Notes: generated by a model not told the origin, from the sequence alone. Shown: positions 5,457 to 60,872, numbered from the stretch's first letter. The stretch is 64,000 bases of DNA from Azolla caroliniana (GCA_043228905.1 JBHGNT010000009.1:15128001-15192000), one strand, 5' to 3'. Numbers and translations: made by a program.

Positions 5457-6734
5457 GATGCCCTCTTGACTTGCGGAAAAAGACCGGCCGAGGAGGAGTT
5501 CAAGAGTGGAGAAGAGCCCTCCACGCTTACTCTAGAGACTCTGGCAGTCGAGCCCGTGTGCCGACATAAGACCGGAGAGATGGAGGGCGCCGGCAAGGAG
5601 TCTTGGCACGATGCCAGCAAAGATGGATGGGAAACAGCCTGCGAGGAGGTCGAGGACGGAGCCACAGCAAAGAAAGAGGAAATGAGAGTCAGCGCTGAAG
5701 GGAGCGGAATCGGAAGTCGACCCGACAGGGGATCGAACTGGTCGGCATTCCGCTTCGGATGGAGCATGATTCGGATGTGGATCGTTCAACAGGGGTAGGG
5801 TTCGGCATGATGCAACTGACACAGAAGAGGGTGCGGGACGAGCTGCCCTCTTTACATGGGGAGAAAGATCGACCAAGGAGAAGGTCGGAATTCGGGAAGA
5901 AGATGATCGAGGGTACGGAACGAGTCCGGCAGGATCGGCATCAGAGCCAAAACTCCAGACATTGGAGAATCAAGCCAAAGCGGGGCTTGATCGATCATAG
6001 AGCGGATGCTTTCCACCAACACCACTAAAAGGGTCGTTGGCCTTAGATGAGTTCCTGGGAGTCGTTTAGGGATCGGTATCCCCACATCTCATTCAGAGAC
6101 TTTGGCAGCCTACGTGAGACCTAGAGAGATGGAAGATGGAGGCTGGAGTACAACAAGGAGGTCGATGACGAGTTCGAGAGAAGAACACGGAAGCAGAGGA
6201 ACGAAGACTGGTCCTATGGGTCACCTCACACCGGGCTAGAGACTTTGGCAGTCAACATCGGATCCGACATAAGACCAAGATATTGAGGGTGGCGGGAGGA
6301 GAACAGGACCCGGCAATGCAGAGTGACGAACGGACCCGGACGAGAAACGGGTGGAGCGGACTTTCGGATAACCGATCCAGAAGGGTGGAGGAAGAAGGCG
6401 TACGGAGAGGCTGGGAACATGGTACATCAGTACCATGGGAGAGGGTGTGGAGCAAGCCACCCTCTAGACATGTGGAGAAGGAGGACCCGGGATAGGGTCG
6501 GGAAAGATGAGAGGCCCAAGGAAGTTCCTTCACACCGGGCTAGAGACTTCGGCAGTCGGCTGCAGAGCAGACATAATACCAAGAGACTAATGGTGGTGGC
6601 AAGGGGATGAGGGAAAAGGCAGTGATGGGGCGATCCTCTCACCGATCCGGAGACTCCGGCAGTCAGCCCGAGAGCCGGCGTGAGACCTAGAGAGAAGGAC
6701 GGTGGCGGCAGGTGAACGGGATCCCAAGATACGG

Positions 6735-7148
6735 TGTCGTGTTGTTACGCGCTTGCGCGTAGAAGGGTGGGACCACGGGGGTCTTGGACCGAGGAGCAAG
6801 AGAGAGAGAGATTCACAGACACGTAGAAGCGAGAAGGAGAGATAGAATGGAACACTTGATTACAATAACGAGAGATTACAATAACAAGATATTACAATAA
6901 CAAGAGATTACAAACTCCGACGGTTACAACCAGCAAGGCGGTGATGGACCCGACACGGGGACCCTACTCATGCACACAGACGGAACCCATTGGACCTAGA
7001 GAAACACAGTAGGAAAAGCCTCTTCTGGCAGCGCACGGGTTACCCACGAAGCAGAGGCGTCGAACTCCCCCCCCCCTCGCACCCATGGAGAATGACGGTC
7101 GGAGGAGGAGAGAGTTCGGCTCTCGGTGCGGCAACACTTCGTCCTCCG
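6735..7148 (-). repeat. 3' LTR of element A (U3 part, PPT and integrase C-terminus deleted)
   Basis: Colinear with 12700-13158, then jumps directly into integrase sequence. Contains 16-bp GAGATTACAATAACAA repeats. Confidence 0.9.
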
Positions 7149-10100
7149 CGTTTTGAAAGCTTTTTGAAAGCTTTGATCCGCTTTCACGACACCGGCACCA
7201 CTAACCGTGTCCCGTCGAGTTCCGCGAGGTGGTATGTGCCGTTGTCGTTCGTGCTCGTCACCGTGTAGGGCCCGAACCATCTCCTTGCGAACTTTCGCAC
7301 CGCCTTGTGCTGATTGTCGAGGCTGCTGTCGTACACCAAGACCTAGTCGCCTTCCTGGATCTTCTTTGGTCACAACCGGTGCGTCTAGTTGAACCGGGTC
7401 TTGTTCCGTTCCCTTGCCGCCCGCAACTTTTCCTTTGCCCGTTTCATGTCCTCCGGCCTCCGCTCGAGTTGCCGAATCTGTGCCACCAGCAACTCCTCCC
7501 GGCTCATCTCGTCCTTCCAATCTACCACCGCCCACGAAGAAACCGTCTGTTCCACCGTCAGGATCGGCTTCTGTCCATACATAAGCTCTGCCGGCATAAA
7601 CCCTGTTACCGAACTGTGCATAGTTCGGTCCGCCCATAGTGCGTAAGGAAGGAGTCACGACCAATTCCTGACCTGCCCTCCGCATGCACACACCAACGCC
7701 TTTACGATCGGCCCATACCCACGTTCTACCTTTCCATTCGCCTCCGGATTGTATGCCGTAGTGAGGGAGAGTCTGACCCCTAGTCGGTCGAACAACTCCT
7801 TAGCTTCCCGCGCATCCAGCTCTCCCTAGTCCGCCACGATCCTCCCGACGCACCCGTACCGACACACTACCTCTTCGATCAGGAACCAGCATACCGCCGC
7901 GGTTGTCTTGTTCTGCAGTGCACGGCCTTCCACCTAGTTTGTTAAGTCTTCTCGCGCAAGCACCAGGTATCGCATCTGTCCTACTCCCATCGGCATTGTC
8001 ACCAAGTCTACCATCCACTTGAAATGGACCGTAGGTGGGTAGGTCAGGTGTAGCTCGTCCCGATGTCGGACCACGGAGTGCATCTGACAGCTTTCGCAAG
8101 TCGTTACGAACCGATGCACGTCCCGGTACAGCCTCGACCACCAGTACTTCTCCTTCAACTTCTCGAACGTGGCCCACGTTCCACGGTGTCCGGCCCAGGG
8201 ACTCTCGTGAAATGCCGCCAAGAGTTTCCCTTGTTCTTCTTTCTTTGCCACTACTCGGAGTGGGATGCCGTTTCTCTTCTTTGGGTGCCTCCATATGCAC
8301 TCGTCCCGCAGGAAGAATCGGTACGCCTTCTTCCGTACCCGGCTCGCTTCCTCTCTCGTCCATGCTGCGTCCGACGTCATCGTCCGTAGGAACCTCCCGA
8401 TTTGGAGCCACTCCCCGTCGTACTTGCTTTCGTCAAATTCGTTAAGCGCCGGAGTTTCCTTTTCCTTGTTATTACGTTAGTCGACCCGAAGAAATCCACG
8501 CTGACTTCTTCTTCATCCGAAACCATGCCGTCTTCGACGTTGAACCTTGCTCTCGAAAGCATGTCGGCCATGGCATTGTCCTTTCCGGAGATGTGCCGTA
8601 TCTCCGGGTTCAGGGACTTAATGTACGCTATCCACCGGAGCATTGCTAGGTCCGGCGTCGCGCATCCAGAAATCATACCGAGTATCGGCAGGCAGTACGT
8701 CTCGATGATCAACTCTGTCCCGATCAGATAGTCCTTGTCGGCCTTGACTGCCAAAACGATACCCCAAAGCTCGCGCTTAACTTGGGCGTATCCTCGCTAC
8801 CGCTCGCTCAATACCTTCGCCCCGAACCGGATCAGGAACCGTACGCCGTCCTTTTCCCCCTGACTAATTACCCACCCGATCCTGGTCGGGCTCGTCTCCA
8901 ACGTCACGCAAATGGGGACATCCTTGTCGTAAATCGCTTTTCGGAGAGCCGGTGCTACCGTAAGCGCCTCCTTTAGTCTCTGTACCGACTCCGTGTGCTC
9001 TATCCTCCACTCGAACCCACGCCCTTTCTTCAATAGCCCGTAGAGAGGCTCCGCAACATGCGCGTAGTGCGGAATCCAGATGTGGTAGAACACGCATGCT
9101 CCCAAGAATCTGCGGACCTCCGTGACCGACCCGCAATCATCCCTCATCGCCGAGATGGCCTCCACCTTTGCCGGAGACGGTTTCCTACCGTAGGGCCCGC
9201 ACAGGTGTCCGATCACCAAGATCTCCGACTGTCCGAACGCCGATTTTTCTCTGGAGAAGGTGAGTCGTGCGTTTTCGAGCTTCTGCAACACCTTCTCGCA
9301 GTCGTTGATGTGGTTCACGACGAACCTCCGGCATCCGTCTGGCCCGACAGTCTTGTACGCGTCATCCACCGGACACCCCTTTATCGAGATATCGTTCAAG
9401 AATGGCATGGTGATGTCCAGTATGCAGTCCCTCAGCACCTTGTTCATTACGTTCACCATATGTGCCATTGAATTCGTCTCGCCTTGTGGTAGGGTACACA
9501 TCCATACTAGGCCGAGAGGAGTTCGCATTGTCGTGATATCCCTGCTCTCGACTGCTAGCTGGAACTAGTTGTACCCCGAGTATAAGTCACCGACCGAATA
9601 GATCGACCTTCCAACGAAGGCCTCCGCGAACTCGTCTATGGTCGGTCCGATTCCTGCGTTACGGATGGTCACCTTGTTGACCGGTTGCAGGTCCTGAATG
9701 AAGCATAGCGTGCCGTTCTTCTTTGGCACCGTAAACCACCGGTTCGAATACGGGGCACTCGACGGTTCGAGGATGCCCATCTCCACCCTCTGATTTAGAA
9801 GCTCCATCAACTTCGGGATGTGAGCTCTCGGCACCGGAATTGGTTTGAGATTCCACGATACATCCGGTACCGTGAAGATCACCATCGGTTTGACGATCGT
9901 CGGGTCCACGCACCCGATCTCCTCCGGCGAGAACGCGAAGGCTTTCCCATGCCTTCCGAGCATTCTCCGAAACCTGTCCTCCTCTGCCGACAGTAGGAAG
10001 CCACCCCCACCGACCTTGAGCTCCCGTAGCGTTATGTCGGTGAACCGGTGCCCTATGCCAGTCGGATTCCGTAAACTTGGGTCCGACGCGACCCCCTTTA

Positions 10101-10545
10101 TCCGCTCCTCGCTGCCCTCCAGCAAGGGTGCCGCGACTGGCCTTACCTTCTGGTCCACAGTCTTGTACTTTGTATCCACGTGGGTCGTCCGATCCGACCT
10201 GATCCTTTCCCCGAAGTTCGCGATGACTTCGTACATTCCCATCGAACTAACCGGAACGGTCCGGTCTTCTCTAAGGTCTTCACCGATCACCTTTCGCAAT
10301 GCGCCCAAGGTGTCGTCAAAAGAGACCGCCTCCACGGCGCCGCTGATCTCTTCGTCGGGGGAGAGGACTTCGCATCCCCTGAGCCGCTCCTCCGCTCGCT
10401 TCCTTTCCCGGCCGCTGACGCTGGCTATAGTACAACCTCCATTTTAAGAAAACCAAAACTTCCTACCTACTATACATGTGTGGGGTTCTTCCGGTATGTC
10501 CGGACTACCTCGGCCCCACGCCTTCATAGCCCTCTCTAAAAATCC
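7149..10545 (-). pseudogene. pol: pol (RT-RNase H-integrase) of element A, with stops and frameshifts
   Basis: RT: PYSNRWFTVPKKNG, DLYSGY, LPQG, PFLND. RNase H: AMADMLSR. Integrase: HESPWAGHRG...CESC zinc finger, WMVDLV core, TGFMPAELMYG. Confidence 0.93.
10480..10545 (-). promoter_or_regulatory. Putative -1 ribosomal frameshift signal (G GAU UUU plus pseudoknot)
   Basis: The gag-PR frame ends ...GGG GAT TTT TAG. The -1 frame continues FLERAMKAWGRGSP..., homologous to the equivalent region of element K. A stem GGGCTAT/GTAGTCC starts 6 nt downstream. Confidence 0.75.
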
Positions 10546-12655
10546 CCTCGGTTGTCGCCGCCGAGGGTCTCGCGATTCCTCTCATGGTTCGGACGTACGG
10601 TCATGAATTGGATGGAATGCCGACCGTCCTAGCTCTTGACGCGCGCATACGCCGAACCGTTGTCCAGCACCTTCGTCTCCATGCGTGCTGCCGTAATGTA
10701 TGGTTCGCCGAGAATCACCGGGTGCGAGGATGTTTCCTGCATGAAGAAATGTTGATCTATCTCGACGTGACCAACCTTTACGCCTATATTCGGGCACGCA
10801 CAATGCAACTCCTCCGTAGCACGCGTCGCCGCGCGTATCTTCTACCCATGCTTGGTGTTGATTGGCCATTTACCCCTCTTGTAGAAATCCATGGACATAA
10901 GGTTGATTTCGGATCCATGGTCTACCAGGGCCACCACCGGTTCCGGAACGTCGCCAATCCGCACAGGGGTTTCCGTAGTTGCCCTGGCCCAATGCGGCTT
11001 TGCGTAGTGGCTTTCTGCCAACTCATCTTCTAGGGCCACGTCTTCTAAGTGCGTAGTCCGCACCTCCACCGGCTCTGTCAAGAGCCTCTTCCGCTTCACC
11101 AAGTCCACAATGGAGTCGTGGAACTCCCTCTTGGCGATTCCCAGCACCTCCCGCAACGACAGCTCCACTTTACTGTCGAGGATACATTCCTCCAAGACCT
11201 TTCGCAGGTCTGTGGTCCTTTCGATTTTGGTGCTCAACCGAAACCCCGCCAGCTTCTTCCCATCCAGCGAGCTTGGGTTGCCGGCACTGGTCGGTTTTGG
11301 TCTGAACCGGGTCTCATACCTCTGCGGAGGACCGACCCCTCCGGCCTTTCTTGCCTGTTTGTCCTCCACCAGAACCTCGTACTTCTGGCAAGCGGCTTCT
11401 ACGAAGCCCGTTTTCTCTTCGACCGGATCGTCCCAACCGGTGACCTCCTGGACCCTTTGCTCCGCGCGGTCCACCTCTTCCTTCTTCAGCCGAACTCCGG
11501 AGAGGCCTTCTAGCACTAGCGGCCAGAATCCGGAGTCCTTCGCCTTCCGGGTCTCATCACCCCCGACCTGAATTCCCGCCGACATTGACTGGTTAACGGC
11601 TTCAACGTGCCATGCCGCGGCCTCTTCCATCAACCTCTTCATTCCGCCGCGTCCCATATTTAGTTCTAGGGCTCTTCGGGTCTCACTCGCGTGCACTCGC
11701 CCGTTCCAGAGGTACACCACGTTGGTCTTGAGCGCGTCGGCGAAATCCGTGCAATCCTTCCGAATGTGACCGATTGCGTCACACCACATGCACCGCTGCC
11801 CAGCCGGCGGCCTCCGGTCGCAAGGTTGTTCGCCGCTGTCTCTCCGGGCCTGTGCGATCTGCAGATCGTGTACCATCTGTGTCAGCTCCTCCAGAGCCAC
11901 TCCTTTGGATGGGCCTCTGACCATGTCCTTCGATGCCGACCCCGAATCTGGCCAGATTTGGGTCTCTTCCTTCCTACCGGCCGGCACCGATACCGGCTCC
12001 TCGAGCCTCCTCCCTAGGACCGGCCTTGACCCCGACACGCTTCCGTCGCTCCAATCACGCCGTTTGTCGAAACGGCTGCAGACCCGTTTTACTACGGCCC
12101 AGTCTGTCGTGAGCCCTTCGTCCGTTTCCAATAGGGGACCCACCTTTTCCCTGTCGAGCGCGTCCACCAACTTGACAAATAGTAGTACTCGACTCGTTTC
12201 GAGCACCGTCCGGTCCAGCGTTGATAGCCGCGCGAACCGTTTTTCGAACTCCTGGAGGAGCACCGACGTGTTCCTCCCTTTTCCGGGGCTTTCCACCCAC
12301 GCCATGAAGTCCCGCCTCGACAGCCGAAACGAGTCGTCAAACCCGTACTTCTCGGGGAGCTTCAGCTCGAACTCCTCCCAAGTCTGGCATTCGGCCAACA
12401 CCATGAGCGCCTCCGCGTGGATGCCCGCGTCACCACCCGAGGGAATCCGGACAACCGCCTGTCCACCGGTATATCCCTCATGATCATTTCGGCTCGGTAA
12501 GCCTCCAAATAACTTGTGGCATCTTTCCCTCCGAACCGGCCTATAGAGCCGACGATCGATTCAATGGCTCTGTCGAGGGTACCCGTCCCCTCACGAGCGC
12601 TTACCAGCCGGTCGACGGCTACCGCCATTGCCTCTGCTAGCTCCGATCCCCTCAT
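10536..12655 (-). pseudogene. gag: gag-protease ORF of element A
   Basis: CCHC knuckle CMWCDAIGHIRKDC and aspartic protease motif ALVDHGSEIN. Minor lesions lie near 12420 and 10842. Confidence 0.92.
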
Positions 12656-12677
12656 CTTTCGACTCCTTTTCCGCCCG

Positions 12678-12695
12678 TTCACGTCGGGTTCACCA
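12678..12695 (-). promoter_or_regulatory. Primer-binding site, tRNA-Trp
   Basis: The plus strand reads TTCACGTCGGGTTCACCA, matching 18 nt of the plant tRNA-Trp 3' end (from recall). It lies 4 nt from the LTR. Confidence 0.88.
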
Positions 12696-12699
12696 AATA

Positions 12700-13395
12700 T
12701 GTCGCGTTGTTACGCGCTTGCGCGTAGAAGAGCGGGACCACGGGGGTCTTGGACCGAGGAGTGAGAGAGAGAGAGATTCACAGACATGCAAAAGCGAGAA
12801 GGAGAGATATAGAACGGAACACTTGATTACAATAACCACAGATTACAATAACGAGAGATTACAATAACAAGAGATTACAATAACAAGATATTACAATAAC
12901 AAGAGATTACAAACTCAAACAGTTACAACTGGCAAGGCGGCGATGGACCCGACACGGGGACCCTACTCACGCACACAGATGGAACCCATTGGACCCAGAG
13001 AAACGCAGAAGGAAAAGCCTCTGTTGGCAGCGCACGGGCTACCCATGAAGCAGAGGCATCGAACTCCCCCCCCCCCCCCCCCCCCCCCCGACCCACGGAG
13101 AATGACGGTCGGAGGAGGAGAGAGAGTTCGGCTCTCGGTCCTGTAGCACTTCGTCCTCCTTAACGCGCGATCCCCCCGTCTTCCTTCTCTCCTCTCCTTA
13201 AATAGTTCCCAAAAGGGGGTGCCCCTTTCCCTAGTCAAATCGCTTTATTCCCTGTCCCTTCTGACAGAGATACGCACAATCCCTCCTAATAAATGGAATC
13301 AATATCAAAATATCAATTCATGTGTCCATTCGTGTAAGAGCCGGTTCATGCGCCTTTTTGTCCGAATCCGCCTATGGCCGGTTTTCTTCACGACA
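12700..13395 (-). repeat. 5' LTR of element A (696 bp)
   Basis: TGTCGCG...CACGACA termini, flanked by the PBS and the TSD. Confidence 0.92.
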
Positions 13396-15032
13396 ACGGT
13401 GTAGAAGTGCGGATGGGCTATCCTACGGTGATCCTCACACCGATCCGGAGACTCCGGCGGTCGGCCCGAGAGCTGGCGTGAGACCTAGAGAGAAGAACGG
13501 TGACGGCAGGTGAACGGAATCTAGCAGAAGGGCCGAAAGGGAGCAGAAGGAGGTGTCAGGCCAGCGATGTGGCCACGAACCAGATACGGACCCAATTGGC
13601 AAGGTCAGAAGGACGAAGATTGAACGCGCTTGGTACACGAGTCAGTTGCCTAACGGATTGGAGGCTTGAGAAGGATCCTTCACACCGGATCTAGAGACTT
13701 CGGCGGTCAACACCGAGAGCTGACGTAAGAACAAGATGCTGACGGTGGCAGTGAGCGGACGAAGGCCGTAGCAACAGAGGCACCGAGTAACCAAGGCGTC
13801 GCGAGAACAACGAAGGCTAGGCAGGCCGAAACGGGCAAGGGTGATCCTTCATGGGTAGCAGCACGGAAAGCTACCAAGGACACCCAAGCGGGGAGCGGTG
13901 TGTCGAACCGAAAGGGCAAACCCAAAAGCGGATCGGAAGACGTGCGTGTGGCCATCAAGGGCCGAAGTAAAACATGGGTACGGGATAGTGTTCGGCATAG
14001 GCGGTGCTGAGCAAGGAAGATGGAAGACGGCACACGAGACGGTGTTCGGAAACCAAGTGCAGGATAGGCTGCACGGGTCGGTAGCCGAAAACGGTATCGA
14101 TGACCGAAGGAGGATCCTCCACACCCACTTCGGAGATCTCGGTGGTTCAGTCAGAGTGGCAACAACTCATGTGGCAAGCTAAGCCCAACATAACAAGCTG
14201 GTAGGGGCGAGGGGACGACGACAAGTATGGCACCGAACCAGTTGCAGCAGCGTGAAACAAAAGGGGCTAAGCGGGCCAACACGGGGTGTCCCTTGAATGC
14301 GGAGAACACCGGTATGCGGAGAAATGACAAGCGACGACACATGATCTGGCCAAGCAGGGGCCGACGAAGTGTGCACAAAGAAAGACCAGAGTTCGGCACA
14401 TGTGGCGCCGAGCAAAGGAGGACGGCGGACTGAGCCTCTTGCGGGGCGTAGTCAAGAGTTACGTGGCACACGGAGGTGCCTGGACGAGAATACGGGCGCG
14501 AAGACGGATTGCATAGGTCGGTAGCCTCAAAGAACATTGACAGCCCAAGAACGATCCTTGACACCGATTCTGGAGACCTCGGTAGTTCAGCCATCATGGT
14601 AATGTAAGACCGAGGAGAAGGAAGGAAGGTGGCGGCAAGGAGACAAAGGCAATAGCGAACCACAACAGTGAACGAGTAATCAAGGCATCGCGATGATTTC
14701 CGGAGGCCAAGAGGGCCACTATGGGGTGTTCCTTGGACGTAGAGGATACCTGTATACGGGGACGCGATGAGTGTGCGTACGGTCGATCAAGGGCCACGAG
14801 ACGAGCACGCGTACGAGAGAATATCGCAGCAAACGACTTGTTGATAGGTCGATCGAGCCTACGGAGAGGCGAGCGCGAGGATGGAACCGGAGCCGACGGT
14901 TCAGACCGGCGGAGGCCAACACGGTAGCCGGGATGTGGATTACGGAAGGCCGGTTGCTCACTACGGTCGGGATCTCTCACACTTCTTCGAACTTGGCACG
15001 TACCGGTGGATGTGCGGTTTGGTGGGGGCGGA

Positions 15033-15701
15033 TGTCGTGAAGATTCACGACCATAGTGAGAAAACCGGAGAAGTTAGTGGCATCGGCGAAGTGCATCATG
15101 TGCACTTACCCTTGTATAAACGTGTTTTCTTGTTTTCTTCTTATTTTCTTGTTTTCTATTAGGGTTCTTTGAGGTCTTCTTCTTCGTCGTTGTCGTGTGG
15201 GTTGAATCTTCATGTCTGTTTAGGGTTTAGTCTGGTTAGGAGCTCGTATGTCTAAAGGGTTTTAGGCTTTTGCCCTGTCTCCTATGCAAGACCCTGTTCG
15301 GCACGATGAGCCCGAGAGCTCCCCAATCAACGGCTTGGCAGAAGACTGTTGTTGTAACCTAACCTACCTTGGTCCAACTCGAAGCCGGAGTTGTATCTTG
15401 CTCTTGTACATATATAATGAAGTTCTATGCATTTGTGTTTCTGTCTGCTTCTTCGGATTTTCTTCTTTCCCTTTCTATACGTAAGTAGCGTGCGGTGAGT
15501 TGGTGTTGCACGTATTCTCTCTCTCTCTCTCCCTCTCTCGGGTTCGACAGCCTCCGATACGCGTCTGGAATCATTCTGGTTAGCGCCATAGCTAGTGCAG
15601 CCAGGACCGGAGAGGGTCGGTCTCCCGGTATCCATCTCTTCCTCGTCTGAGACCCCCGTGGTCCCACCCCTTTCGACACATACTCGCGGAATACCGTGAC
15701 A
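15033..15701 (+). repeat. 3' LTR of element B (internal deletion near 15125 removes the TATA region)
   Basis: Starts TGTCGTG after the PPT. Compared with the ~915-bp LTRs of element C it lacks a block after TATAAACGTG. Confidence 0.88.
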
Positions 15702-15705
15702 ACGC

Positions 15706-19315: not shown

Positions 19316-19853
19316 ATGGCTACTGAATTCTGGCAGGCTTCGGAAAGCCACCTAACCAAGCTTGAACAACGACTCAAAGAAACCGGGCAAACAAACCCTC
19401 TAGCCCTTCCAGAACTTGCTTGCAACCATGTTGATGTGTCCACACAGACCGAGGACACAACCAACTTAGTGTCCGCCATCGAAACGGACAAGGTCTCTCC
19501 ACCCAACTACGAAGAGTAGCTCGCGGTGCAATCGGTGACCTCCGCGAAAGCAAAAGAGCGTTATGAAGCAGCCAAAGTAGAGGCCGACCAAATCCCGGAG
19601 CAAGTAGAGAAACGTGAAGCCGAACTCCAAGAACGGCTCGACGCACAAACAACAAAGCTCTACGAAACTAAAGAAAATGTCGAGTTGGTTCTTAGAGCAA
19701 CAAATGAGGATTCTGCAACCAAAATACATGAAATTAAGGAAGGATACCAACTTGTTGCGGCCATTACAAACAAACAACTCATCAGTCTCCAAAACAAACA
19801 CACAGAAGTCAAGGAAAGGTGCAACCAACAGCTTGAAATGTTGGAAGACGCGG
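19316..19853 (+). pseudogene. Coiled-coil ORF of orphan element X2, 5' part
   Basis: Heptad-like E/K/Q-rich frame. It joins in frame to 31305 once element C and its TSD are removed (LEMLEDAV|WDKYTLLEFLHE). Confidence 0.7.
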
Positions 19854-20771
19854 TGTCGTGGTAATCCGCGACTATGTGTCGAAAGGAGCGGGACCACGGG
19901 GGTCTCAGACGAGGAAGAGATGGGTGTCAAGAAGCTAACTTCTTGCCAGTCCCGGTTGCACTGGTTGTGGCACAAACCAAAGCGATTCCGGATGCGTACT
20001 GGCGGCTACCAAACACAAGAGAGGGAGAGAGAGAGAGAACACACGCCCCCCACCGACTCTACACACGCCTCTTATGTACAAGAAACAAAGGGAAAGAAAT
20101 GCACTCGACACCAACAAAGAAACGAATATGCACAACCTAATATATCTATATTCACACGAGCAAGATACACCTCCGGCTTCAAGCCAGACCAAGGTAGGTT
20201 AGCTTACAACAGTCGTCTGCTGCCAAGCCACCAATCAAGCTCGTCATGCCGAGCAGGGTCTTGCATAGGAGACCGAACTGAAGCAAACCCCATTGAACAT
20301 ACAAGCTCTTCACCAGACTAAACCCTAAACAGACACGAAGGAGAAGAAGAAGTCGAAGAACCCTAACCGGAAACAAGAAAGTAAGAACAAGAAGAAGCTA
20401 CCGAAAATGAAACCCTAAACGAAATGGGTGGAAGAAGACCAAAGTAGAAACCCTAAGAAAATAAGAATGAGATGAAGAGGAAGAACACCACCAAACCCTA
20501 GACCTAAGTGATATACCCTCCTAACTCAAAATGGGCAACCCCTCTACAAGGGACCCTCCCTTCCTTTTATAGAACAAGGTGAGGGATGCGTTACAATGTG
20601 GGATAAATCCCGATTTACATGGGACTCTCTATCCCGACTTGACTCCTACTCGACGTCATAAAGGCACCCCTATTATTCACACGTTTTTACAAGGGTAAGT
20701 GCAGATGATGCACTCCGCCGATTCTTCTGATATTCCCCGGTTTCTCACCATGTCCCGGAATCTTCTTGACA
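19854..20771 (-). repeat. 3' LTR of element C
   Basis: Direct repeat of 30386-31300 with TG...CA ends, adjacent to the PPT. Confidence 0.92.
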
Positions 20772-30347: not shown

Positions 30348-30385
30348 CCTCACTTGCCGCCCTTTCATGTCGGGTTCACCAAAGA

Positions 30386-31300: not shown

Positions 31301-31304
31301 ACGG

Positions 31305-35225: not shown

Positions 35226-35229
<4 letters not shown>

Positions 35230-35269
<40 letters not shown>
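35230..35269. repeat. (AG)n microsatellite, about 20 units
   Basis: Direct reading. Confidence 0.97.
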
Positions 35270-35270
<1 letters not shown>

Positions 35271-41202: not shown

Positions 41203-41304
41203 CCGGTTTCGTCCTCAGCCTATCGGCCTCGGCCGAGATTGTTCGTCGGCACTGTTCTTCTCCCTTCCCATCTGGAGGGACCTGTCTCCCAACAAACTCC
41301 CCCT

Positions 41305-44300: not shown

Positions 44301-45351
44301 ACATGTCTCCTATGCCGACAATTCGGCATGTACCTTCATTCCCCATCCGGACACAGCCGTGATCACCGGCTGAGTATGATGAGAAGCATTTCCGGTCCGG
44401 GGTGACATGGAACGACGCTCCGGAGTCTACCACCCAGGTCATCTCGTCGCCGGCAAGGTTTATCTCACTCTCCTCGGTGATGAGCATCAACTCTTCTTCA
44501 CTTGCCGCGATTTCCGTTGTCCCCTTCCGGTCCGGCCCCCTCCGGTCTTTACCGTTCCGGTCTGGGGTCTGCTTCGAATCGGTACCATCGGTCTCCTTAT
44601 CTTTTCGGAAATGCTGACAGTTCTTTTGGAAGTGTCCCGGCTTGCCGCAATAGAAGCAAGTGGGCCTCCCCCTTGACTTTGACCGTGTCCCCGACTTCTC
44701 CCGGTTCTGGGGACTACAGTTTCTATGTCTTCCGCGTTCCGATTCGGTAAGGAGCGCTTTGGAGTCAGAGCTCGTATCTTTATCTTTCCGATGCACCTCC
44801 TCATCTAGCAGGCTCGACTTCACTCTTGCTAGGGATAACCGCTTTCCTTCCGGCCCGGCATTGCCCAAAGTGACAACCAATGTCTCCCAGCTGTCCGGGA
44901 GGGAACCGAGCAGAAGTAGCGCAAGTACCTCATCAGCGCGAGGTACTTCCAATGAAGTTGCCTGGTGGATCAGCCCCTAGAAGGCATTCATGTGCTCCGC
45001 CATGCTGGAGCCATCTTGGTACCGGAGTCTTACTAGCTTCCGGAATACCGACACCTGATTAACAGCATTTTTGTTTTGAAACATTATGTCGATCTTCTCC
45101 CAGAGCTCATGAGCCTTGCTCTCTTCATTGAAGTTGTTGTACAGGCTCATGTCGATGAAGCACCGTATGTACGCCGTTGTCTTCATGTGCATCACCTCCC
45201 ATATCGCGGCGTCGATTTTGTCCGGTCTCTTGTCCCCGAACTGAACTGGCAGCCAGAGGTCTTTAACCACGAGCATGTCCCTCATCTTCGACTTCCATAC
45301 CGAATAGTTGGAGCCGGTGAGCTTGAACATGCCGCCAAACGATTCGTCCAT
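41305..45351 (-). pseudogene. Single-frame gag-pol of J with four premature TAG stops
   Basis: Five ORF-track pieces share one frame. Motifs: CFYCGKPGH, WVVDSGASFH, VRADNGGEY, QLDVK, YVDD, GGAISWQSRLQ, SDMLTK. Confidence 0.95.
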
Positions 45352-45838
45352 ATTTCTGTGTTGTTTCGCTCTGATACCACTTGACGGGAACTCAACGCTC
45401 CTTATGCGCTACGCTCGGCCACAACCGAGCTTAGAATGATACACAAAAAACGGGAACGAATGTACGCGACACAAAGGAGAGAAAAGGTACACAGAATGTT
45501 TACGTGGAAAACCCAAAGAGGGAAAAACCACGGCAGTCCACAGGCTGCAAACTATCACTATGTTGGAATGTACAAAACAGTGAGTTCACGGAGGCAACGA
45601 CCTCGTACTCATGATCTTCGCCACAGGCGGCGGTTACAACAGAGGCAGTGACCTCTTTCTTTCTCTCTCTCTCTGTACACTGTTACGTGTTCTCTCTTCT
45701 TCTTGCACCAACAAGAAAATGACAACTAACTACACATATTTGCCCTAAGTCATATTTATACTAATATGACTTTTCAGCTATTTACAAATATAGCCACGAT
45801 GGGCTCTCAGAAACATATTTACGAATATGTCTCTTCCT

Positions 45839-46162
45839 CCGGTTCTCACCGGGTCTGCGTCATCCGGCTCTCCGTAGCCGGGTGCTCCTCATCCGGTTCA
45901 CACCAGGTCTGCACCATCCGGCTCTCCGTAGCCGGGTACTCCTCATCCGGTTCACACCGGGTCTGCACCATCCGGCTCTCCGTAGCCGGGTACTCCTCAT
46001 TCGGTTCACACCGGGTCTCCACCATCCAGCTCTCCGTAGCCGGGTACTCCTCATCCAGTTCACACCGGGTCTGCACCATTCGGTTCTCCATAGCCGGGTA
46101 CTCCTCATCCGGTTCACACCGGGTCTGCACCATCCGGCTCTCCGTAGCCGGGTACTTCTCTT
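45839..46162. repeat. 54-bp minisatellite x6 in the 5' LTR of J
   Basis: Same unit as at 40771. Confidence 0.95.
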
Positions 46163-46560
46163 CTGGTTTCGTCCTCGGCCGAGATTGTTCGTCGGCACTG
46201 TTCTTCTCCCTTCCCATCCGGAGGGACCTGTCTCCCAACATAAAGCACCCTCCTCCCACCTTGTAAAAGAGTTGAGTCTTTCTCCTTTGTTAATATACTT
46301 TACCTTGCGTATTCTCTATGTCTTACTCCGTGTCTCTCTCACTCTCTCTCTCTCTCTCATACACACACACTCACAACACATATCTCTAGTCTATTCCGCT
46401 GCACAAGAATCGCCACCGATTCTTAACATGGTATCAGAGCGATTTGGTAGCTCGATCTAGCCCACTCACCTCATCGTGATCGTGTGTCGTGTCCTTCCCC
46501 GACAACCAAGAACCAGCTCATCGCTATCGTAGCTTCGCTACATAGCTTGCATTCGAAGAG

Positions 46561-46603
46561 AGAAGAAGAAGAAGAAGAAGAAGAAGAAGAAGAAGAAGAA
46601 GAA
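46561..46603. repeat. (GAA)n microsatellite in the 5' leader of G
   Basis: Direct reading. Confidence 0.95.
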
Positions 46604-46623
46604 TCGACATAATGAATACTCAA

Positions 46624-50372: not shown

Positions 50373-50708
50373 GGGCATTCGTGTCTCTGTTATCGTCCCC
50401 TTGTGTGTTCATCTTGCGTACTCATCTTTGCTTGTACCCGTTTGATCACTTTGCTCATGCGGTGATCTCGAAAACTCGACTAGTCGTGATCAACAAAAGC
50501 CACTGGCCTCACAAAAGGCGCAACGAGCCCTTGCTCGGGAAGGGATCAGGAAGTAGTATTGTCGTAAAGCAAACCTCAGGTCTTCTCTATCACTGCAGTA
50601 CTCCCTAGTCCAAGACCCTTGTGGTCCCGCCCAAGTAACACACACGCGCGAAACATCGCGACATAAATTGGTGAACCCGACATCAAAGGACGGCAAGGGA
50701 GATCCAAG

Positions 50709-52852
50709 ATGCGAGGAGGAGAACTCGCTGAAGCGATGGCGGCAGCGGTGGACTGCTTGGTAAATGCTCAAGAAGGCATCACCGGCCTAGACCGGGCCAT
50801 AGAGACATGGTCAGCACAACGGTTTAATGGAAGAGATACCACAAGCTACTTGGATGCCTATAAGGCCGAAATGCTTATGCGAAACGTCCCCGAAGATATG
50901 CGGCTAGCCGGATTCACTAGAGTGGTAACACCGAGTATCCACACAGAGGTACTCGAGATACAAGTAGACCCTTGCAATTGGGAGGGGTTCAAAGAAAAAC
51001 TCCTTGAGAAGTACGGCCTTGATGACTCACTCAGAATTTTGAAAAGGGATCTAATGGAGTGGGTTGAGCTTCCCAGCAAGGCGAGAAATACTATGGCACT
51101 TCTACAAGAATTTGAGAAGCGCTTCGTGCGACTCTCGGCTCTTGATAGGACGGTGCTTTACACAAGCAAGGTCCTACTATTCATAAAATTTGTTGATGCA
51201 CAAGACCGAGAGAAGGTGGGGCTCCCCCTCGAAACTGATGATGGGCTCACGACGGATTGGGCTATGGTAAAACGGGTTTGTAGTCGCTTCGATAAGAGAA
51301 GGGAATGGAACCATGGGTCTCCTTTGAGCGGCAAACATCCACATGCTCCATTAGTCAAACACACGAACCCAGGGGTGGTAGAGCACCTCAAGAAAGAGAG
51401 CAAACAAATGCAAGGTTCGTCCTCGAGAGAAACGTGGTTGAAGCACCGTCTGGAGGGTTGGCAATAGACGAGCTCACAAAGATGGTGTGAGATCTCCAAA
51501 TAGCGCAAGTTAGGAGAGAGAGTGGTGGCCCTCAAGATCGATGTCCCCCATTCGCGCAAAGATGTATGTGGTGCGACAATCCCGACCACCTATGAAGGGA
51601 GTGTGGAGACTTTCAAGAGGCCCTAAGAAGGGATATTGTCTATCTTTGGAACAATAGGGTCTATTCGACGGAGACAAGGCGCCCCTTGGAATTGAATCAA
51701 GGCCGAGGGGGCATGAGAAGGCTAATGGAGGAGGCCGAATCACGACATATTGAAGTCGTCCACTACTCGGCGTCGGTTGGGATCCGAGTGGGAAAAGAGG
51801 TGAGGAGGCAAGAGGAGAAAGAGTTTGACTTTTGGCCATCAATACTTGGAAGCCTCTCTAGGGGAAAGTTCAAAAGAGAAGAAGCGGACAAAGCGGAAAG
51901 AAGGGTCCAAGAAGAAACCGGGTGGAAGGATCCGGTGGAAGAAAAGACTGGCTTAGTGGAAGCCGCTTGCCAAAACTACGAAGTAATGGTAGAAGAGAAG
52001 AAGGTAGGAAATGATGTGGAAGCCGGTCCATCAAGGAAATACGACGCTTGAGGTGCACTAAGAAGGGAAGAGCCGAACCAGTCTCAAGCACGTGACGAAA
52101 GATGGAAAGAGAAGGGGAACCCCCCCAACTTCAAGATTTGCTCGAAGATCGAACAAGCAACGGACTTGAAGAAGGTAGTGGAGGAAAGGATCCTCAATAG
52201 TCACGTAGAGTTTACTCTACGAGAGGTCCTCGGAATTGCCAAGAAAGAATTACATCAGGTCATCATCGACCTAATGAAGAGGAAGCGGCTCTCGACGGAG
52301 CAAGAAGTGGAAAATCCCACGATTGTAAATGCATTGTGAACTGAGGTGCCCAAGGAAGACAAAGACTATGTGGATAGTCACTACACGAGGCCGCATTGGG
52401 CGAGAGTGACAACGGAGACACCGGTGCGGGTCGGAGATGTAAATGAGCCGGTTGTAGCCTTGATCGACCATGGCTCTAAGGTTAACCTTATGTCCATGGA
52501 CTTTTATAAAAAGGGAAACTAGCCGATCAACACGAAGCACGGGTGGAAGATTAGAGCGGCGACCCGAGCAACCGAGGAGCTATACAGGGCTTGCTCGAAT
52601 GTACGGGTGAAGGTGGGGGACGTAGAAATAGATCAACATTTTTGTGTTCAAGAGACGTCCTCACACCCGGTCATCTTGGGTGAACCATACATCATGGTGG
52701 CTCACATGGAGATGAAGGTGCTAGACAACGGGTCGGCATATGCGACAGTCAAGAGCCAAGATGGGAAGCATTCGGTCCAATTCCTTACGGTGAGGCCCAA
52801 CCATGAGCGCAATCGAGCCTCCCTCAAAGGGGAGAGCCGAGAGGATTTTTGA
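50709..52852 (+). pseudogene. gag: gag-protease of K (frameshifted)
   Basis: MRGGELAEAMAAAVD...; CMWCD knuckle; LIDHGS protease motif; ends QFLTVRPNHERN...EDF*. Colinear with element A. Confidence 0.9.
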
Positions 52853-52905
52853 TGCAAGCTATTAAAGAGTGGGGCCGCAATAGCCCGAGGCAAACTAAGA
52901 CCCTA
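52843..52905 (+). promoter_or_regulatory. Putative -1 frameshift signal of K
   Basis: G GAT TTT TGA, with pol open in the -1 frame from 52849 and a stem GCTATT (52858-52863)/AATAGC (52879-52884). Confidence 0.75.
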
Positions 52906-54096
52906 AACCCTTGCAAAACTATTAAATGTAATAGGAAACAATTTTGGTTCTCCGAAAATGGAGCTTGTAAAATTACTAGTTTAAGTGATAGAGATAAGCC
53001 TAGGGCCAAGAGATACAAAAGGTATCTCAAACAATGTAATTTATTGGGGGAAGATGACACCATAAGCGGCGCCATGGAGGCAGTCTCGTTCGACGACACT
53101 CTCAGAGAGATGGAGAGGATAGTCGTTTCGGGCATCAATGAAGACAAGGTAATTCTAGTCAACTCAGTTGACATGTACACCGTCATCGAAGAGCTTGGGC
53201 GGTTGATTGAGGAAGCGAGGATGGTCAAGGTGCAAACAAAGTACAAAACCGTGGACAGGAAGGTGAAGCATGTGGCTTCCCCATTGCCTAACAATAATTG
53301 GGATCGGATAAAGGGGGTAGCGGTTGATCCTAGCTTGCGGGACCCACGAGGCATAGGGCACTGAATCACCAACGAGACGCGACAAAAGCTCCGGAATGGT
53401 GGGGGTGGCTTCCTATTGCCTAGGGAGGAGGAAATATTTAGAAGGATGATAGAAAGACACAAAAGGGCTTTCGCCTTCTCGTCGGGTGAGATAGGGTGCG
53501 TAAACCCTAAGATCATGGAGCCAACGGTGATCTTTACGGTACCGCTTGTACCATGGAACATCAAAGCAATCCCGGTTTCGAGAGCTCACATCCCGAAGTT
53601 GATTGAGCTACTCAAGGAAAAGATCAAGATGGGTATCCTCGAGCCATCAAACGCCCCATACTCGAATCGGTGGTTCATTATGCCAAAGAAGAACGGCACC
53701 TTACCCTTCATCCAGGACCTACAACCTGTTAATTAAGTGACAATTCGAAATGTAGGGGTCGGGCCGAGCGTTGACAAATTCACCGAGGCCTTCGCTGGAA
53801 GGTCTATTTATTCGATCGGTGATCTATACTCGGGGTATGATCAATTCTAACTAGTTGTGGAATGTAGGGACATCACGACGATGCGGACCCCTATCAGCCT
53901 AGTAGGAATGTGTACCTTGCCACAAGAAGGCACTAACTCTATAGAACACATGGTAAATGCAATGAACAAGGTATTGAGAGATTGCATCCCCGACATCACC
54001 ATGCCATTCCTCGATGACATCCCCATAAAAGGGTGCTCTGAAGCAGAGAAAGATGAAACCTTGGACGAGGATGACTGTAGACGTTTTGTGGCATAT
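52849..54096 (+). pseudogene. pol: pol of K (N-terminal RT only)
   Basis: PYSNRWF, DLYSGYD, LPQ and PFLDD motifs, then the sequence jumps into the 3' LTR. Confidence 0.9.
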
Positions 54097-54630
54097 CTCA
54101 TACCCCTTCATGCCCTCATCACCACATGCTCATCTTCTTCGCGTTGGCACTCGAAGTTCTCATTTACGGTGCTCGTGAACCCGAGCTTCGTTGGTTCAAC
54201 GTTGCTTCGCCTCGTTCTTCATTACGAGCCCGTGTGCTCGCCGTTCAGGTGGTCGTGGTTCATTGGGGTTGGTATTTCTGTGGTGCTTGTGTGTTCGTCT
54301 TTGTCGTGTTCGTGCTCCGTGTTCGGATTTGCTCTTGTCTCTAAGGGCATTTAGTATTTATGTTTTGTTGAGCTTGTGGTTAACTAGAAGTTGCACATTG
54401 TAATCGAGCCCTATTTTATAAAGGGCCCTCTTGCATTGGAATTAAACACGTATTTATTTCTTTAGCCAATATCATTCGTGTTTTTCTTTCTTTCTTTCTT
54501 TCTTTGTTCTCGTCCACTTGTACGTTCGGCCGTCTTGTGACAAGGGAGTGTTTCAAGCGTGCCCATGCACCTCTCCTCCTCATAAAGGCGTACGAGCATT
54601 TGTGTGTGTGCTTGTGTCTTCCTTGTACGT

Positions 54631-55427
54631 TGTCGTAGTGTGAATCACACACTACGTGAAATATGTAAAATACTATATCCGATTTAAAGTACGTATTATA
54701 AATAAAATAAAACATTAAAAATATTTATTACGTGCATAAGGCAAGATTTGAACCCTATACCTCCACATAGACAAACCCCAACCTTACTATTGTACTAACT
54801 TATCCTAATATGTATAAGACCTTTATTTACTCCTATCTTTATTAAAAGGTAAGTCATGCATTTTTTTTAGAATGCGTGAATACTTTATTTATAAGAAAAA
54901 TGTACACCAATAAAAAATGACTTGTGCACATCTAACGAGCATGAGCACTATATTTAGGAAATAAAAGCATAGTGTAAAAAGGCAACTCATGCACATTTAG
55001 TGTGCATGAACACTTTAGAAAAAGCATGAAGCTATGCTTAGCCTCTTCCATCCTTATATAAAGAGGAGATAAAGATGTATGGGAGGTTGTTGCTTATTTT
55101 TACAAGGGTGGATTGATATAATATAATCGTGGGATTCACGAATTTGCTAACTATTTTTTTCTCTCTTAATCTGAGTACTCACTAATACACTATACTCGTG
55201 GGATTCACGAGTTTTTCATATCTTTCTTTCTTACAACATATTTCATATTCATCATTGCCTTAGAATTTCCTTTTCTCCTAGTCCAAAACCTCAATGGTTC
55301 TCGCCCGACTCACGCAACGATCCGGCGCCGAAAGGCACGACACAAGTGAATTTCCTTTTCTCCTAGTCCAAAACCTCAATGGTTCCTGCCCGACTCACGC
55401 AACAATCCAGCGCCGAAAGGCACAACA
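54631..55427 (+). mobile_element. AT-rich gypsy-type solo LTR
   Basis: TGTCGT...ACAACA ends and 4-bp TSD ACGT (54627-54630 and 55428-55431). The U5 motif CTAGTCCAAAACC...TGGT resembles elements A, B, C and K. The last ~85 bp is duplicated. Confidence 0.85.
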
Positions 55428-55600
55428 ACGTTTGGTCGTCTTGTGACAAGGGAGCGTTTCAAGCGTGCCGATGCACGTCTCCTCCTCATAAAGGCGTACG
55501 AGCATTTTGTGCATGTGTTTGTGTCTTCCTTGTACTTTCGGCCGTCTTGTGACGAGGACGCGTTTCGGGCGTGCCCATGCACCTCTCCTTCTCATAAAGA

Positions 55601-57302: not shown

Positions 57303-57953
57303 CATTTTGGGCATGCCCATGCACCTCTTCTCCTCATAAAGACGTATGAGCATTTTTTGCATGTGTTTGTGTCTTCCTTGTGCGTTCGGCCATCTTGTGA
57401 CGAGGGAGTGTTTCGGGCGTGCCCATGGACCTCTCCTCCTCATAAAGACATACGAGCATTTGTGCGTGTGTTTGTGTATTCCTTGTACGTTCAGTCGTCT
57501 TGTGACAAGACGTCGTTCGGGCAATGCCCATGCACCTCTCCTCCTCATAAAGGTGTACGAGCATTTGTGCCTGTGTTTTGTGTTTTCCTTGTACGTTCGA
57601 TGTCTTGTGACAAGGGAGAGTTCGGGCGTGCCCATGCACCTCTATTCCTCATAAAGACGTATGGGCATTCGTGTTTGTGTTATCATCCCCTTGTGCGTTC
57701 ATCTTGCTTTCTCATCTTTGCTTGTACCCATTTGATCACTTGGCTCGTGTGGTGATCTCGAAAACTCGACTAGTCATGATCAACGAAAGCCACCGGCCTC
57801 ACAAAAAGGGCAACGAGCCCTTGCTCGGAAAGGGGTCGGGAAGTAGTATTGTCATAAAGCAAACCTCGGGTCTTCTCTATCCCTTGAGTACTCCCTAGTC
57901 CAAGACCCCCGCGGTCCCACCCAAGTAACACGCGCGCGCGAAACTTCGTGAGA

Positions 57954-60872
57954 GCGCTCCTCGACCTCCTCGGTCGACTTGTCTGCTCAATAGGCCCATC
58001 TCAGCTCCTTCATTGTTGTGACTCCGACGCTTGTCAACATGTTGTCTCCTCCATATCAGCGTTGACTTTCGCTACCTCGTTGTCTGTTCGGCCTTTAGTT
58101 GATTCAGCGTCTCCGAATCGAACTCCTCTTTTAAATCGGGTGTCTCCTATTTGTTCCAGCTCTTGTCTGAATTAGATGTCTCTAATCTGTCCTCTTCCAG
58201 ACCTTTGACCACATCTGCCCCATATTTTGGTTTGTGCCTTTCCCGCATTGCCTCCCCTTTTTTCAGTTGGCTTCGGCTTGGGCTCTCCGTTCCGGTGGCT
58301 GCATCCGTTCTCAGCTTTCTTAGCCATACCATGCAATCTGACTTCTTCAGGTAGGCCGAAGTCGAAATTGGTTTCCAACCCTCAGCTTCCCTGTCATCTT
58401 CCTCATCCCTCCTTTCATTCCTCCCCCTCAAGTTCGGCATATCAAGGTATTACACACCTAGTGCACCGGAAAATTGCTGCAACTTGTCTAAGCCTAGGGG
58501 TTTCATGAAGACATCGGTCACCTGCCGATCTGTCAGAACATACACTTGTTCCACTTCACCGGAGAGAACATGCTCTCGGACAAAATGATAGTGCACCTCG
58601 ATGTGCTTAGTCCGGGCGTGAAAGACGGGGATCTTAGCCAATTGGATGTTGTTGAGGTTATCGCAATAGATCACTGTCGGATCGGATACCTCCACCTGCA
58701 GATCCTTTGGGCCCTCTTGAGCCATATGGCTTCCTCAATGTGCTTAGTCCAGGCATGAAAGACGGGGTTCTGGCCAATTGGATGTTGTCGAGGTTATCGC
58801 AATAGATCACCATCGGATCAGATACCTCCACCTGCAGATCCTTTAGGAGCCTCTTTAGCCATATGGCTTCACATGTCGCGACATACGCTCCTCGATACTC
58901 AACCTCAATCCTCAATAGTGTAACTGTCAGTTGCTTCTTACTACTTTTGGCGACCGCAGCGCTTCCTAGTGAAAACGCATATCCGGATGTAGACCTACTG
59001 TCGCCGGCATTTCCGGCCCAATCGGCATTTGTGTAGCCAACAAGTTGTTCGGCTACACCGGTACGATATGGCAACCCCCTGTCCTTAGTGCCCTAACATA
59101 TCGCAGGATTCGGTGCACGCACTGAAGGTGCTCCATGGTCAAATGCCCATAAATGGAATGATCAACCTGACCGGATAACTAAGGTTCGGTCGGGTGATGG
59201 TCAGATAGATAAGGCCGTCGACTATCTGTCTGAACCTTTTCGGGTCGCATGATGTTCCAAAGTCAGGGCGGAGCTTCACATTCCCGTCGAGAGGGATCGA
59301 AACGGATTTGCATTCCTTCATACTGAATTTGAAGAGCATACTCAGCACATAATGTTGTTGACTGATCAGTATGCCCTCCGGGGTGCGGATGATTTCGATC
59401 TCGAGGAAGTAATGAAGGTCCCCAAAATCCTTCATGTCGAACGATGTCATAGGTTGGGACTTGATGCGGCGGATTTCGTCCCGGTCAACGCCAACGATGA
59501 CTAAATCATTAACATAAAGTAAAATACTAACTAGCCCGTTCTGACCTTGCCAGATGAAGAGAGAAGAGTCTGATTTTGACGGAGCAAACCCCATCCGACG
59601 CAATCTCTGCGTGATCTTCGCATTCCAGGCACGCGGAGCTTGCTTGAGTCTATAGAGGGACTTCTTCAATCGGCACACTACAGATGTATTCATGTCGTAC
59701 TGAAATCCGGGGGGCTAAACCATATACAGTTGTTCCTGAAGATCGCCTTGCTGGAACACGTTCTTTACATCCATCTGATGCAGATGCCCCCCCTTCGCCA
59801 CGGCCACCGCAAGCAGGACACGAATGGTAGTCATCTTTGTGACCGGCATGATTGGCGCAAACATCTCATCATAGTCGATATCATGCTGTTGTGCGTAGCC
59901 CTTTGCCACTAACCAGGCCTTGTACCTGTTGACGGAGCCGTCGGTGTTATATTTAACTTTGTAGCCCGGCAACCGATCAGCTTCACTCCGTTCAGTACGT
60001 CCACTAAATCCCACATCTCATTTTCCATAAGTGGGTGCATCTCTTCCTCCATAACGGCACACCAATTTGCGTCCTTCGTTGCATCTGGGTAGCTCTCTAG
60101 TGCACAGCTGCCACCTTCACCATGTACGCATAATGATGCACCATATACTCATTGTAGCCGTACCTTTTTATGGGGTTCTTCTAGCGGGTGGATCGTCCCA
60201 GTTTCTGCGCTGTCGATTTCTTGGCCTTCTTGGTTGACTCGGATTTCTCTTCCGAAGGTCCATCTTCGATCTGTCCAGAGTCGGATCTGCTCCGATCCGA
60301 CTCGTGTCTGCCGGTGTCCTATTCCGACATCTTCTTCTTCCACTTTTATTTGTGTGTGAACCATCTCCTTGGTTCCTTGCGTGGGTAGAGCACGGCCGAG
60401 TCGTCACTACTCGCCGGCTCTTCACCTAACTAGTCATCCCAACTCAGTCACTCATTCGGCCCACTTAGTCGGGATGAGATCAGACTCTGATCTTCTACCC
60501 ATATCGTTTTGGGCTAACAGGCCTCATCCTCCGGAATCGGGTTGGAGTCGAACATCAGAGCCAGTAGAGAGTACCATGGTGCCGACTCATCTGAATTCGA
60601 CATCTCGACTCACTCGAACTTGTTTTGTTTCGGGGGTTATAGCACTTATAACCCTTTTTCTCATGTGAGTAGCCGATAAGGATGCACTTCTCCGACTTCA
60701 GGTCCAGCTTTCGCCGCTTCTCATCCGGCACATGCACATATCCAATGCTACCGAATATCTTTAGGTGACTTAAATTTGGCTTCTGCCCAAACTACAGCTC
60801 ATGGGCTAACACCTTATCCCTGATCTAGTTTTAGGTGTAGATGGCCGTCCTAACCGCTTCGGCCCAATAGAA
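57954..60872 (-). mobile_element. Copia internal region (INT C-terminus, RT, RNase H, 3' extension), probably the body of H
   Basis: HQMDVKN, YVND and HARTKHIEVHYHF motifs, with a ~137-bp duplication in RNase H (about 58598-58870). Confidence 0.88.

What the first reader, a model, noticed from the sequence alone, without database searches (positions are those of the whole stretch)
6731..57957. Trp-primed gypsy elements insert at CpG-centred 4-bp targets (RCGN)
Seen: all five readable junctions have a purine followed by CG. They are ACGG/ACGG (A: 6731, 13396), GCGG/ACGG (C: 19850, 31301), ACGT/ACGT (solo LTR: 54627, 55428), ACGC (right flank of B, 15702) and GCGC (right flank of K, 57954). The copia TSDs here are 5 bp with no CpG (TAAAG, CATTT, CTCTC). 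Established: most plant LTR elements make 5-bp TSDs with weak consensus. Inference: a sequence- or methyl-CpG-directed integrase that steers these elements into GC-rich TE nests.
Basis: partly seen in the sequence, partly recalled or inferred. Interest (0 to 1): 0.7.

Follow-up and report, generated by a model that had tools for sequence, protein, structure and literature searches.

The report
Fern retrotransposons that insert at CpG
Several families of jumping genes in what is likely a fern genome sit almost only in the middle of a C-G base pair step, a habit already reported for the moss 'Phygy' elements to which they likely belong, and it is likely set by the integrase reading the DNA sequence rather than its methylation.

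Summary
Genome-wide, 165 of 215 insertion flanks of family A have CG at the centre of a 4-bp target, against 14 of 1038 for a copia family. Families B/C, K and the solo-LTR family behave alike. Most exceptions are TG/CA, at the rate at which CpG decays in the LTRs; 54 of 56 paired duplications keep CG in at least one copy. The motif is VCGB (ACGT commonest, CCG about a quarter, T avoided), not strictly RCGN. Neumann et al. 2019 already list '4 bp (NCGN), tRNA-Trp, no extra domain' for the moss Phygy lineage; these elements match those traits in a likely fern host. Whole copies end the integrase in a short acidic tail, with no recognisable methyl reader. Flanks are no more repetitive or GC-rich than random VCGB/CG sites or copia sites, so there is no extra steering into nests. 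Methyl-CpG reading is untested.

The parts
6731..6734 (.). Left TSD of element A, ACGG
6735..13395 (-). Element A, decayed gag-pol gypsy element; 5' LTR 12700-13395, 3' LTR remnant 6735-7147, inserted in the internal region of B
12678..12695 (-). tRNA-Trp PBS of A, 4 nt after the LTR end
10539..12655 (-). gag-protease region of A (weak DUF4100 hit, E 0.0015), broken by stops and frameshifts
7160..10518 (-). RT-RNaseH-integrase region of A, broken; a deletion removes the acidic tail, PPT and start of the 3' LTR
13396..13399 (.). Right TSD of element A, ACGG
3678..15701 (+). Element B, non-autonomous (gag remnant only), 5' LTR ends 4543, PBS from 4548, 3' LTR ends 15701; left end not readable
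15702..15705 (.). Right flank of B, ACGC
19850..19853 (.). Left TSD of element C, GCGG
19854..31300 (-). Element C, non-autonomous relative of B (gag remnant only); LTRs 19854-20771 and 30386-31300, 90% alike; PBS from 30381 down; holds a copia element at 22749-28339
31301..31304 (.). Right TSD of C, ACGG (likely GCGG changed at the CA|G junction)
50669..50686 (+). tRNA-Trp PBS of element K, 5 nt after the 5' LTR end at 50663
50709..54093 (+). gag-protease and truncated RT of element K
54627..54630 (.). Left TSD of the solo LTR, ACGT, in a 106-bp tandem unit of K's LTR
54631..55427 (+). Solo LTR of family S (196 exact matches of its 18-nt start in the genome)
55428..55431 (.). Right TSD of the solo LTR, ACGT
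57954..57957 (.). Right flank of K, GCGC
40487..46245 (-). Control: Met-primed copia element with 5-bp TSD TAAAG; its family gave the genome-wide control

Best explanation
These Trp-primed, chromodomain-less Ty3/gypsy families, likely members of the Phygy lineage, sit in 4-bp duplicated targets centred on CpG, and their integrase likely picks the site by reading the DNA itself. Shown: the target is palindromic VCGB (ACGT commonest), shared by autonomous-type (A, S, K) and non-autonomous (B/C) families; TA, the other common flexible step, is almost never used; nearly all exceptions are TG/CA. Inferred: a symmetric integrase dimer cuts with a 4-bp stagger and kinks the central pyrimidine-purine step, as the foamy-virus intasome does (consensus VYRB, which also explains the avoided T/A at the edges), and base contacts from the core or the SH3-like domain narrow YR to CG, so that about 95% of original targets were CpG. 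Candidates for the contact are the near-invariant D-R-G-E motif (E aligns with PFV Ala188) and a conserved Q-H-S-T-x-R-K loop in the C-terminal domain. After insertion the duplicated sites likely became methylated and decayed to TG/CA. The bias to GC-rich repeats is a passive result of where CpGs are.
For: Whole-genome counts 165 of 215 (A) versus 14 of 1038 (copia). Hand counts from listings: B/C 55 of 84 CG, 24 TG/CA, 5 other; K 54 of 68 CG, 14 TG/CA, 0 other, after dropping 32 PBS-side rows of the 100 listed out of 123. Script counts on 145 fetched flanks: 111 CG, 26 TG/CA, 1 TA, 7 other, local CG background 4.7% and TA 5.6%. CpG decay between the two LTRs of 15 A elements is 0.13 per copy (166 of 723 sites), against 14 of 90 TG/CA at A targets (p 0.43). 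Paired TSDs: 54 of 56 with CG in at least one copy, 48 of 56 within one mismatch. Integrase ends 27-50 aa after the SH3-like module in an acidic tail in whole A and S copies and in 57 of 60 homologues (17-57 aa); that tail is low-confidence coil in the model; Pfam finds no chromodomain or methyl reader in six homologues. Best sequence and fold matches are PFV and Ty3 integrases. Flanks equal random motif sites in repeat content. Literature: PMC6317226 passages and Additional file 5; PMC4422553 passages (PFV VYRB, T/A disfavoured at TSD edges, local preference largely independent of chromatin); PMC2527525 abstract (ZAM integrase binds CGCGCg directly).
Against: No biochemical test; sequence and methyl-CpG readout predict the same TSD logo. 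LTR-pair decay shows the repeats carry CG and CWG methylation signatures, so most available targets in repeats were probably methylated. The repeat test used a library of only about 2 Mb of fetched loci and old copies filtered by selection, so it is weak. Two of 56 pairs share the same non-CG centre (TTGC/TTGG, GCAT/GCAT), slightly more than double decay predicts. The residue candidates rest on a sequence alignment and a model of pTM 0.41. Phygy membership was not tested on a tree. No other gypsy lineage of this genome was counted as a control.
Confidence: 0.68

Rival explanations
1. The integrase reads methylated CpG (the 5-methyl group or the altered bendability of mCpG), without any add-on reader domain, and so aims at already silenced DNA.
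For: Near-complete CG use with exclusion of TA needs more than flexibility; repeats of this genome show methylation-type decay, including the very tandem-repeat site the solo LTR hit (11 ACGT, 5 ACAT/ATGT of 18 units); two pairs with shared TG/CA centres could be thymine mimicking 5mC. A reference list in PMC5408687 cites an effect of CpG methylation on retroviral integration in vitro (title only seen; the paper was not held).
Against: No methyl-reader domain; no excess of repeat flanks or own-group flanks over random VCGB sites (72% vs 70%, 14% vs 14%); flank CG density is slightly below that of random CG sites (0.047 vs 0.054); the fly element ZAM has a CGCG target through direct binding (PMC2527525 abstract; that flies largely lack CpG methylation is recalled).
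Confidence: 0.17
2. A host protein that binds CpG or methyl-CpG tethers the integrase through its acidic tail and positions it exactly on the CG step.
For: The acidic tail is kept in 57 of 60 homologues (median 39% D+E); yeast Ty elements use C-terminal tethering (recalled; mentioned in PMC5408687 passages).
Against: The tail's sequence is not conserved; tethering usually picks a region, not a base step; outside the 4 bp the logo is nearly flat.
Confidence: 0.1
3. The pattern is a by-product: CG-rich nests plus selection or mutation after insertion, with an unspecific integrase.
For: The window's nests are CG-rich (NCGN 5-7% of 4-mers).
Against: 77% against a local background of 4.7% and against 1.3% for copia in equally GC-rich flanks; mutation removes CpG rather than creating it.
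Confidence: 0.02

Closest known systems
Phygy lineage, non-chromovirus Ty3/gypsy (Neumann et al. 2019, PMC6317226; passages and Additional file 5 read)
   Same: 4-bp TSD with NCGN preference, tRNA-Trp PBS, no chromodomain or aRH, coding region filling nearly the whole internal part.
   Different: Described there as specific to the moss Physcomitrella patens (186 elements, 7.7-10.0 kb); here the host is likely a fern and whole A and S copies are about 6.9-7.3 kb. The motif is resolved further to VCGB with an estimated ~95% CpG at insertion, and non-autonomous partners share it. Phygy has since been annotated in a liverwort (PMC12885004, passages).
TatI (Selaginella; PMC6317226 Additional file 5)
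   Same: 4-bp TSD, tRNA-Trp PBS.
   Different: TatI carries an archaeal-type RNase H in 100% of 4 elements; none was detected here, and no target motif is listed for TatI.
ZAM/Tirant errantiviruses of Drosophila (PMC2527525 abstract; PMC5408687 passages)
   Same: Works alike: CG-centred palindromic target chosen by the integrase itself.
   Different: Animal lineage with env and a longer CGCGCg consensus; no relationship tested.
Prototype foamy virus intasome (PMC4422553 passages; PDB 3oym, 3l2q)
   Same: 4-bp stagger, consensus VYRB contains VCGB; best sequence and fold match of the integrase.
   Different: PFV preference is weak and accepts any YR step; here CG is used almost alone.

Membership tests
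Phygy (REXdb) | RT-RH-INT clusters with REXdb Phygy sequences (the primary criterion) | not testable with these tools
   The REXdb FASTA and element table are too large to read; no homologue named from P. patens came up; named relatives were Riccia and Adiantum.
Phygy (REXdb) | 4-bp TSD | tested here: met
   28 of 56 paired flanks identical over 4 bp, 48 of 56 within one mismatch.
Phygy (REXdb) | NCGN target preference | tested here: met
   165 of 215; 111 of 145.
Phygy (REXdb) | tRNA-Trp PBS | tested here: met
Phygy (REXdb) | No extra polyprotein domain (no chromodomain, no aRH) and no extra ORF | tested here: met
   Pfam on six homologues; pol stops about 55-75 nt before the 3' LTR in whole A and S copies.
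TatI | aRH domain | tested here: not met
   Only one RNase H stretch between RT and the integrase zinc finger.
Chromoviruses (Galadriel has 38% 4-bp TSDs) | Chromodomain at the integrase end; tRNA-Met or self priming | tested here: not met
   Acidic tail only; PBS is Trp.

The most novel reading that the evidence does not exclude
A land-plant integrase lineage, kept from mosses to ferns, reads 5-methyl-CpG directly in its target-binding surface, a chromodomain-free way to land in silenced DNA.
Probability: 0.17. Interest if true: 0.75.

Novelty: new member of a known kind. Interest (0 to 1): 0.3.

Why it matters
Phygy is the one plant LTR lineage reported with a target motif, in a single sentence and a table cell, from one moss. 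This genome shows the same habit in at least four families of a likely fern, with hundreds of sites, a sharper motif (VCGB) and an estimate that nearly every original target was CpG. That makes it an unusually strict retrotransposon integrase, and it makes the sequence-versus-methylation question answerable. If the methyl reading were true it would be a new route to heterochromatin targeting; on present evidence it is a range extension and refinement.

Tried and rejected
Strict RCGN: rejected. Steering to GC-rich nests beyond CpG availability: not seen. Angiosperm or moss host: first assumed; one host exon (DEAH helicase in L309) has ferns as best named matches at 57% and 52% over the full query, so 'likely fern', from one gene only. 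Methyl-reader domain in the integrase: none found. Mismatched TSDs as recombinants between unrelated copies or as retained cDNA overhang bases: rejected because the changes run one way only and do not match the overhang letters. TSDs in other species: 80 metagenome loci were fetched; 11 showed the same Trp PBS but none gave both element ends, so no TSD could be read. Single-sequence fold failed (pLDDT 33). The S-family part of the LTR decay script crashed and was not rerun, so the decay rate is from family A only. In one search, 45 of 80 loci gave no second end within 8.3 kb; of the 35 that did, 5 were dropped because a PBS followed and 1 (L191, GCGT/ACAT) was dropped by a filter error. Literature searches for the motif; among the papers listed only PMC6317226 holds 'NCGN'; PMC6911290 passages note GC-rich centres of 4-bp TSDs without naming a lineage. 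Subscription papers and REXdb updates outside the library were not seen.

Full report
Observation. A, C and K have a PBS that is the complement of the 3' end of this genome's tRNA-Trp(CCA) genes; B has the same PBS with two mismatches; copies of the solo LTR elsewhere are followed by it too. A and C are on the minus strand, so their targets read CCGT and CCGT/CCGC in element orientation. Two of the three copia TSDs are exact 5-mers, the third is CTCTC/CTCCC. A and K are decayed gag-pol elements, B and C keep only a gag remnant.

Genome-wide test. I counted LTR 5' ends of family A with a pattern that drops most polypurine-tract-side ends by requiring a non-G six bases out (and a non-C sixteen bases out): 215 ends, of which 165 have CG at positions -3/-2. 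The same design on the copia family of window 40492-46240 gave 14 of 1038; Fisher p about 1e-141. The 215 still hold a few tract-side ends (2 of the 100 listed), so 77% is a slight underestimate. By hand from the listings, B/C 3' ends give 55 CG, 24 TG/CA and 5 other of 84, and K 3' ends give 54 CG, 14 TG/CA and 0 other of 68, after removing 32 PBS-side rows from the 100 listed of 123. On 145 fetched flanks (94 A, 21 S, 30 B/C) a script found 111 CG, 26 TG/CA, 1 TA and 7 other, against local frequencies of 4.7% CG and 5.6% TA. A few listed rows are duplicated segments and not independent insertions.

The exceptions are decay. Between the two LTRs of 15 A elements (mean identity 95%), 166 of 723 CG sites differ by a transition, 0.13 per copy; CWG sites decay at 0.08-0.11 and CHH at 0.01, the signature expected of CG and CHG methylation (inference). 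TG/CA make up 14 of 90 A targets, not different from 0.13 (p 0.43). Of 56 paired duplications (36 A, 20 S), 36 have CG in both copies, 15 CG against TG/CA, 3 CG against something else, and 2 share a TG or CA centre. So about 95% of original targets were CpG (inference).

The motif. Among 111 CG targets the two outer positions, read symmetrically, are A 130, C 53, G 32, T 7 of 222, against a local background of 23, 28, 16 and 34%. A is enriched, T nearly excluded, C at background. The motif is VCGB with ACGT commonest (40 of 145). Beyond the four bases the table is nearly flat, with a mild A/T lean at -6, a position biased by my own filter.

Where they land. The 300 bp outside the targets are 45.8% GC, more than random positions (42.8%) but less than random CG sites (47.7%) and the same as 29 copia flanks (47.2%) (background from 20 arbitrary 10-kb stretches). 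Flanks match other repeats in 104 of 145 cases, random VCGB sites in 209 of 300, copia in 26 of 29, random positions in 162 of 300; matches to the Trp group itself are 21 of 145 against 43 of 300. The lean to GC-rich repeats is what the motif alone predicts. The test is weak, since the library is small and the copies are old.

The integrase. In whole S and A copies the frame ends 27-50 residues after the GPY/SH3-like module in an acidic tail, shortly before the 3' LTR; 57 of 60 homologues have such a tail, variable in sequence. Pfam on six homologues shows RT, RNase H, H2C2 zinc finger, core and a faint SH3, nothing else. A model from 61 sequences (pLDDT 69, pTM 0.41) leaves the tail as low-confidence coil and matches PFV and Ty3 integrases best. 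The motif after the second catalytic aspartate is D-R-G-E in nearly all rows (R 58, G 58, E 60 of 61), with E opposite PFV Ala188, and a Q-H-S-T-x-R-K stretch before the GPY motif is strongly kept. These are candidates only.

Mechanism. Serrao et al. 2015 (PMC4422553, passages) give the PFV target as VYRB: a 4-bp stagger needs a kink at a flexible central YR step, T and A are disfavoured at the edges in all 4-bp viruses studied, and Ala188 and Arg329 touch bases. That accounts for the V and the B here. It does not account for CG over TA, which needs base readout. ZAM's integrase binds CGCGCg directly (PMC2527525, abstract). I commit to direct sequence readout (0.68); methyl-CpG readout (0.17) and tethering (0.10) remain open because all three give the same logo.

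What is known. Neumann et al. 2019 state that Phygy elements prefer NCGN and are the exception among plant LTR elements (PMC6317226, passages); Additional file 5 lists 4 bp (100%, NCGN), tRNA-Trp 81%, no extra domain. Every trait I could test matches; the tree, which is the defining test, could not be run because the reference files were too large to read. I put membership at about 0.75. Named relatives of the RT are from the liverwort Riccia and the fern Adiantum, none from seed plants among the 120 listed; the Gag resembles DUF4100 clusters of plants and of basidiomycetes (that DUF4100 was first built from Physcomitrella is recalled). One host exon points to a fern. Phygy has been annotated in a liverwort genome (PMC12885004, passages). 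PMC7466625 and PMC8282616 passages gave nothing on targets.

Verdict. A real and very strong feature, best filed as a new member of a known kind: a Phygy-like group in a likely fern, with a refined motif. Interest 0.3.

Noticed in passing
56 paired TSDs; window 19850/31301: The base touching the LTR changes one way only: left G/right A in 8 of 13 pairs with G first, left T/right C in 4 of 10 pairs with C last. Both are C-to-T in the CTG/CAG made by the junction, and 12 of 23 is well above the 0.08-0.13 decay inside LTRs (p about 8e-6). It explains C's GCGG/ACGG; the excess is unexplained.
   Followed up: partly
window 12696-12699, 30382-30385, 50664-50668; The spacer between the 5' LTR end and the PBS is 4 nt in A, B/C and S and 5 nt in K, longer than the 2 nt usual in retroviruses (recalled), which suggests longer 3' trimming by this integrase.
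   Followed up: no
window about 10536-10545 (-) and 52843-52852 (+); L061-L075: Gag-protease ends at a conserved GGATTTTTAG/TGA with RT in the -1 frame in A, K and eight S copies, a likely -1 frameshift site placed after the protease.
   Followed up: partly
L071, L142, L175, L183; listing: Some elements sit exactly at the TSD left by a relative or in a relative's PBS, since both offer a VCGB site; 2 clear cases among 145 flanks, so rare.
   Followed up: partly
60 nt before the 3' LTR in A, S and C copies: The plus-strand primer region is a G-rich tract broken by pyrimidines, preceded by a small inverted repeat; it is not the tRNA-Arg copy that earlier notes report for another lineage of this genome.
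   Followed up: partly
window 48003-50410, 54517-57700: K's LTRs hold a 106-bp tandem array; the solo LTR hit the ACGT site of one unit.
   Followed up: partly
G000:C8:17796786-17823371 and C16:4989495-5105657: tRNA-Trp 3'-end matches occur in arrays, about 1.2 kb apart on C8 and clustered on C16.
   Followed up: no
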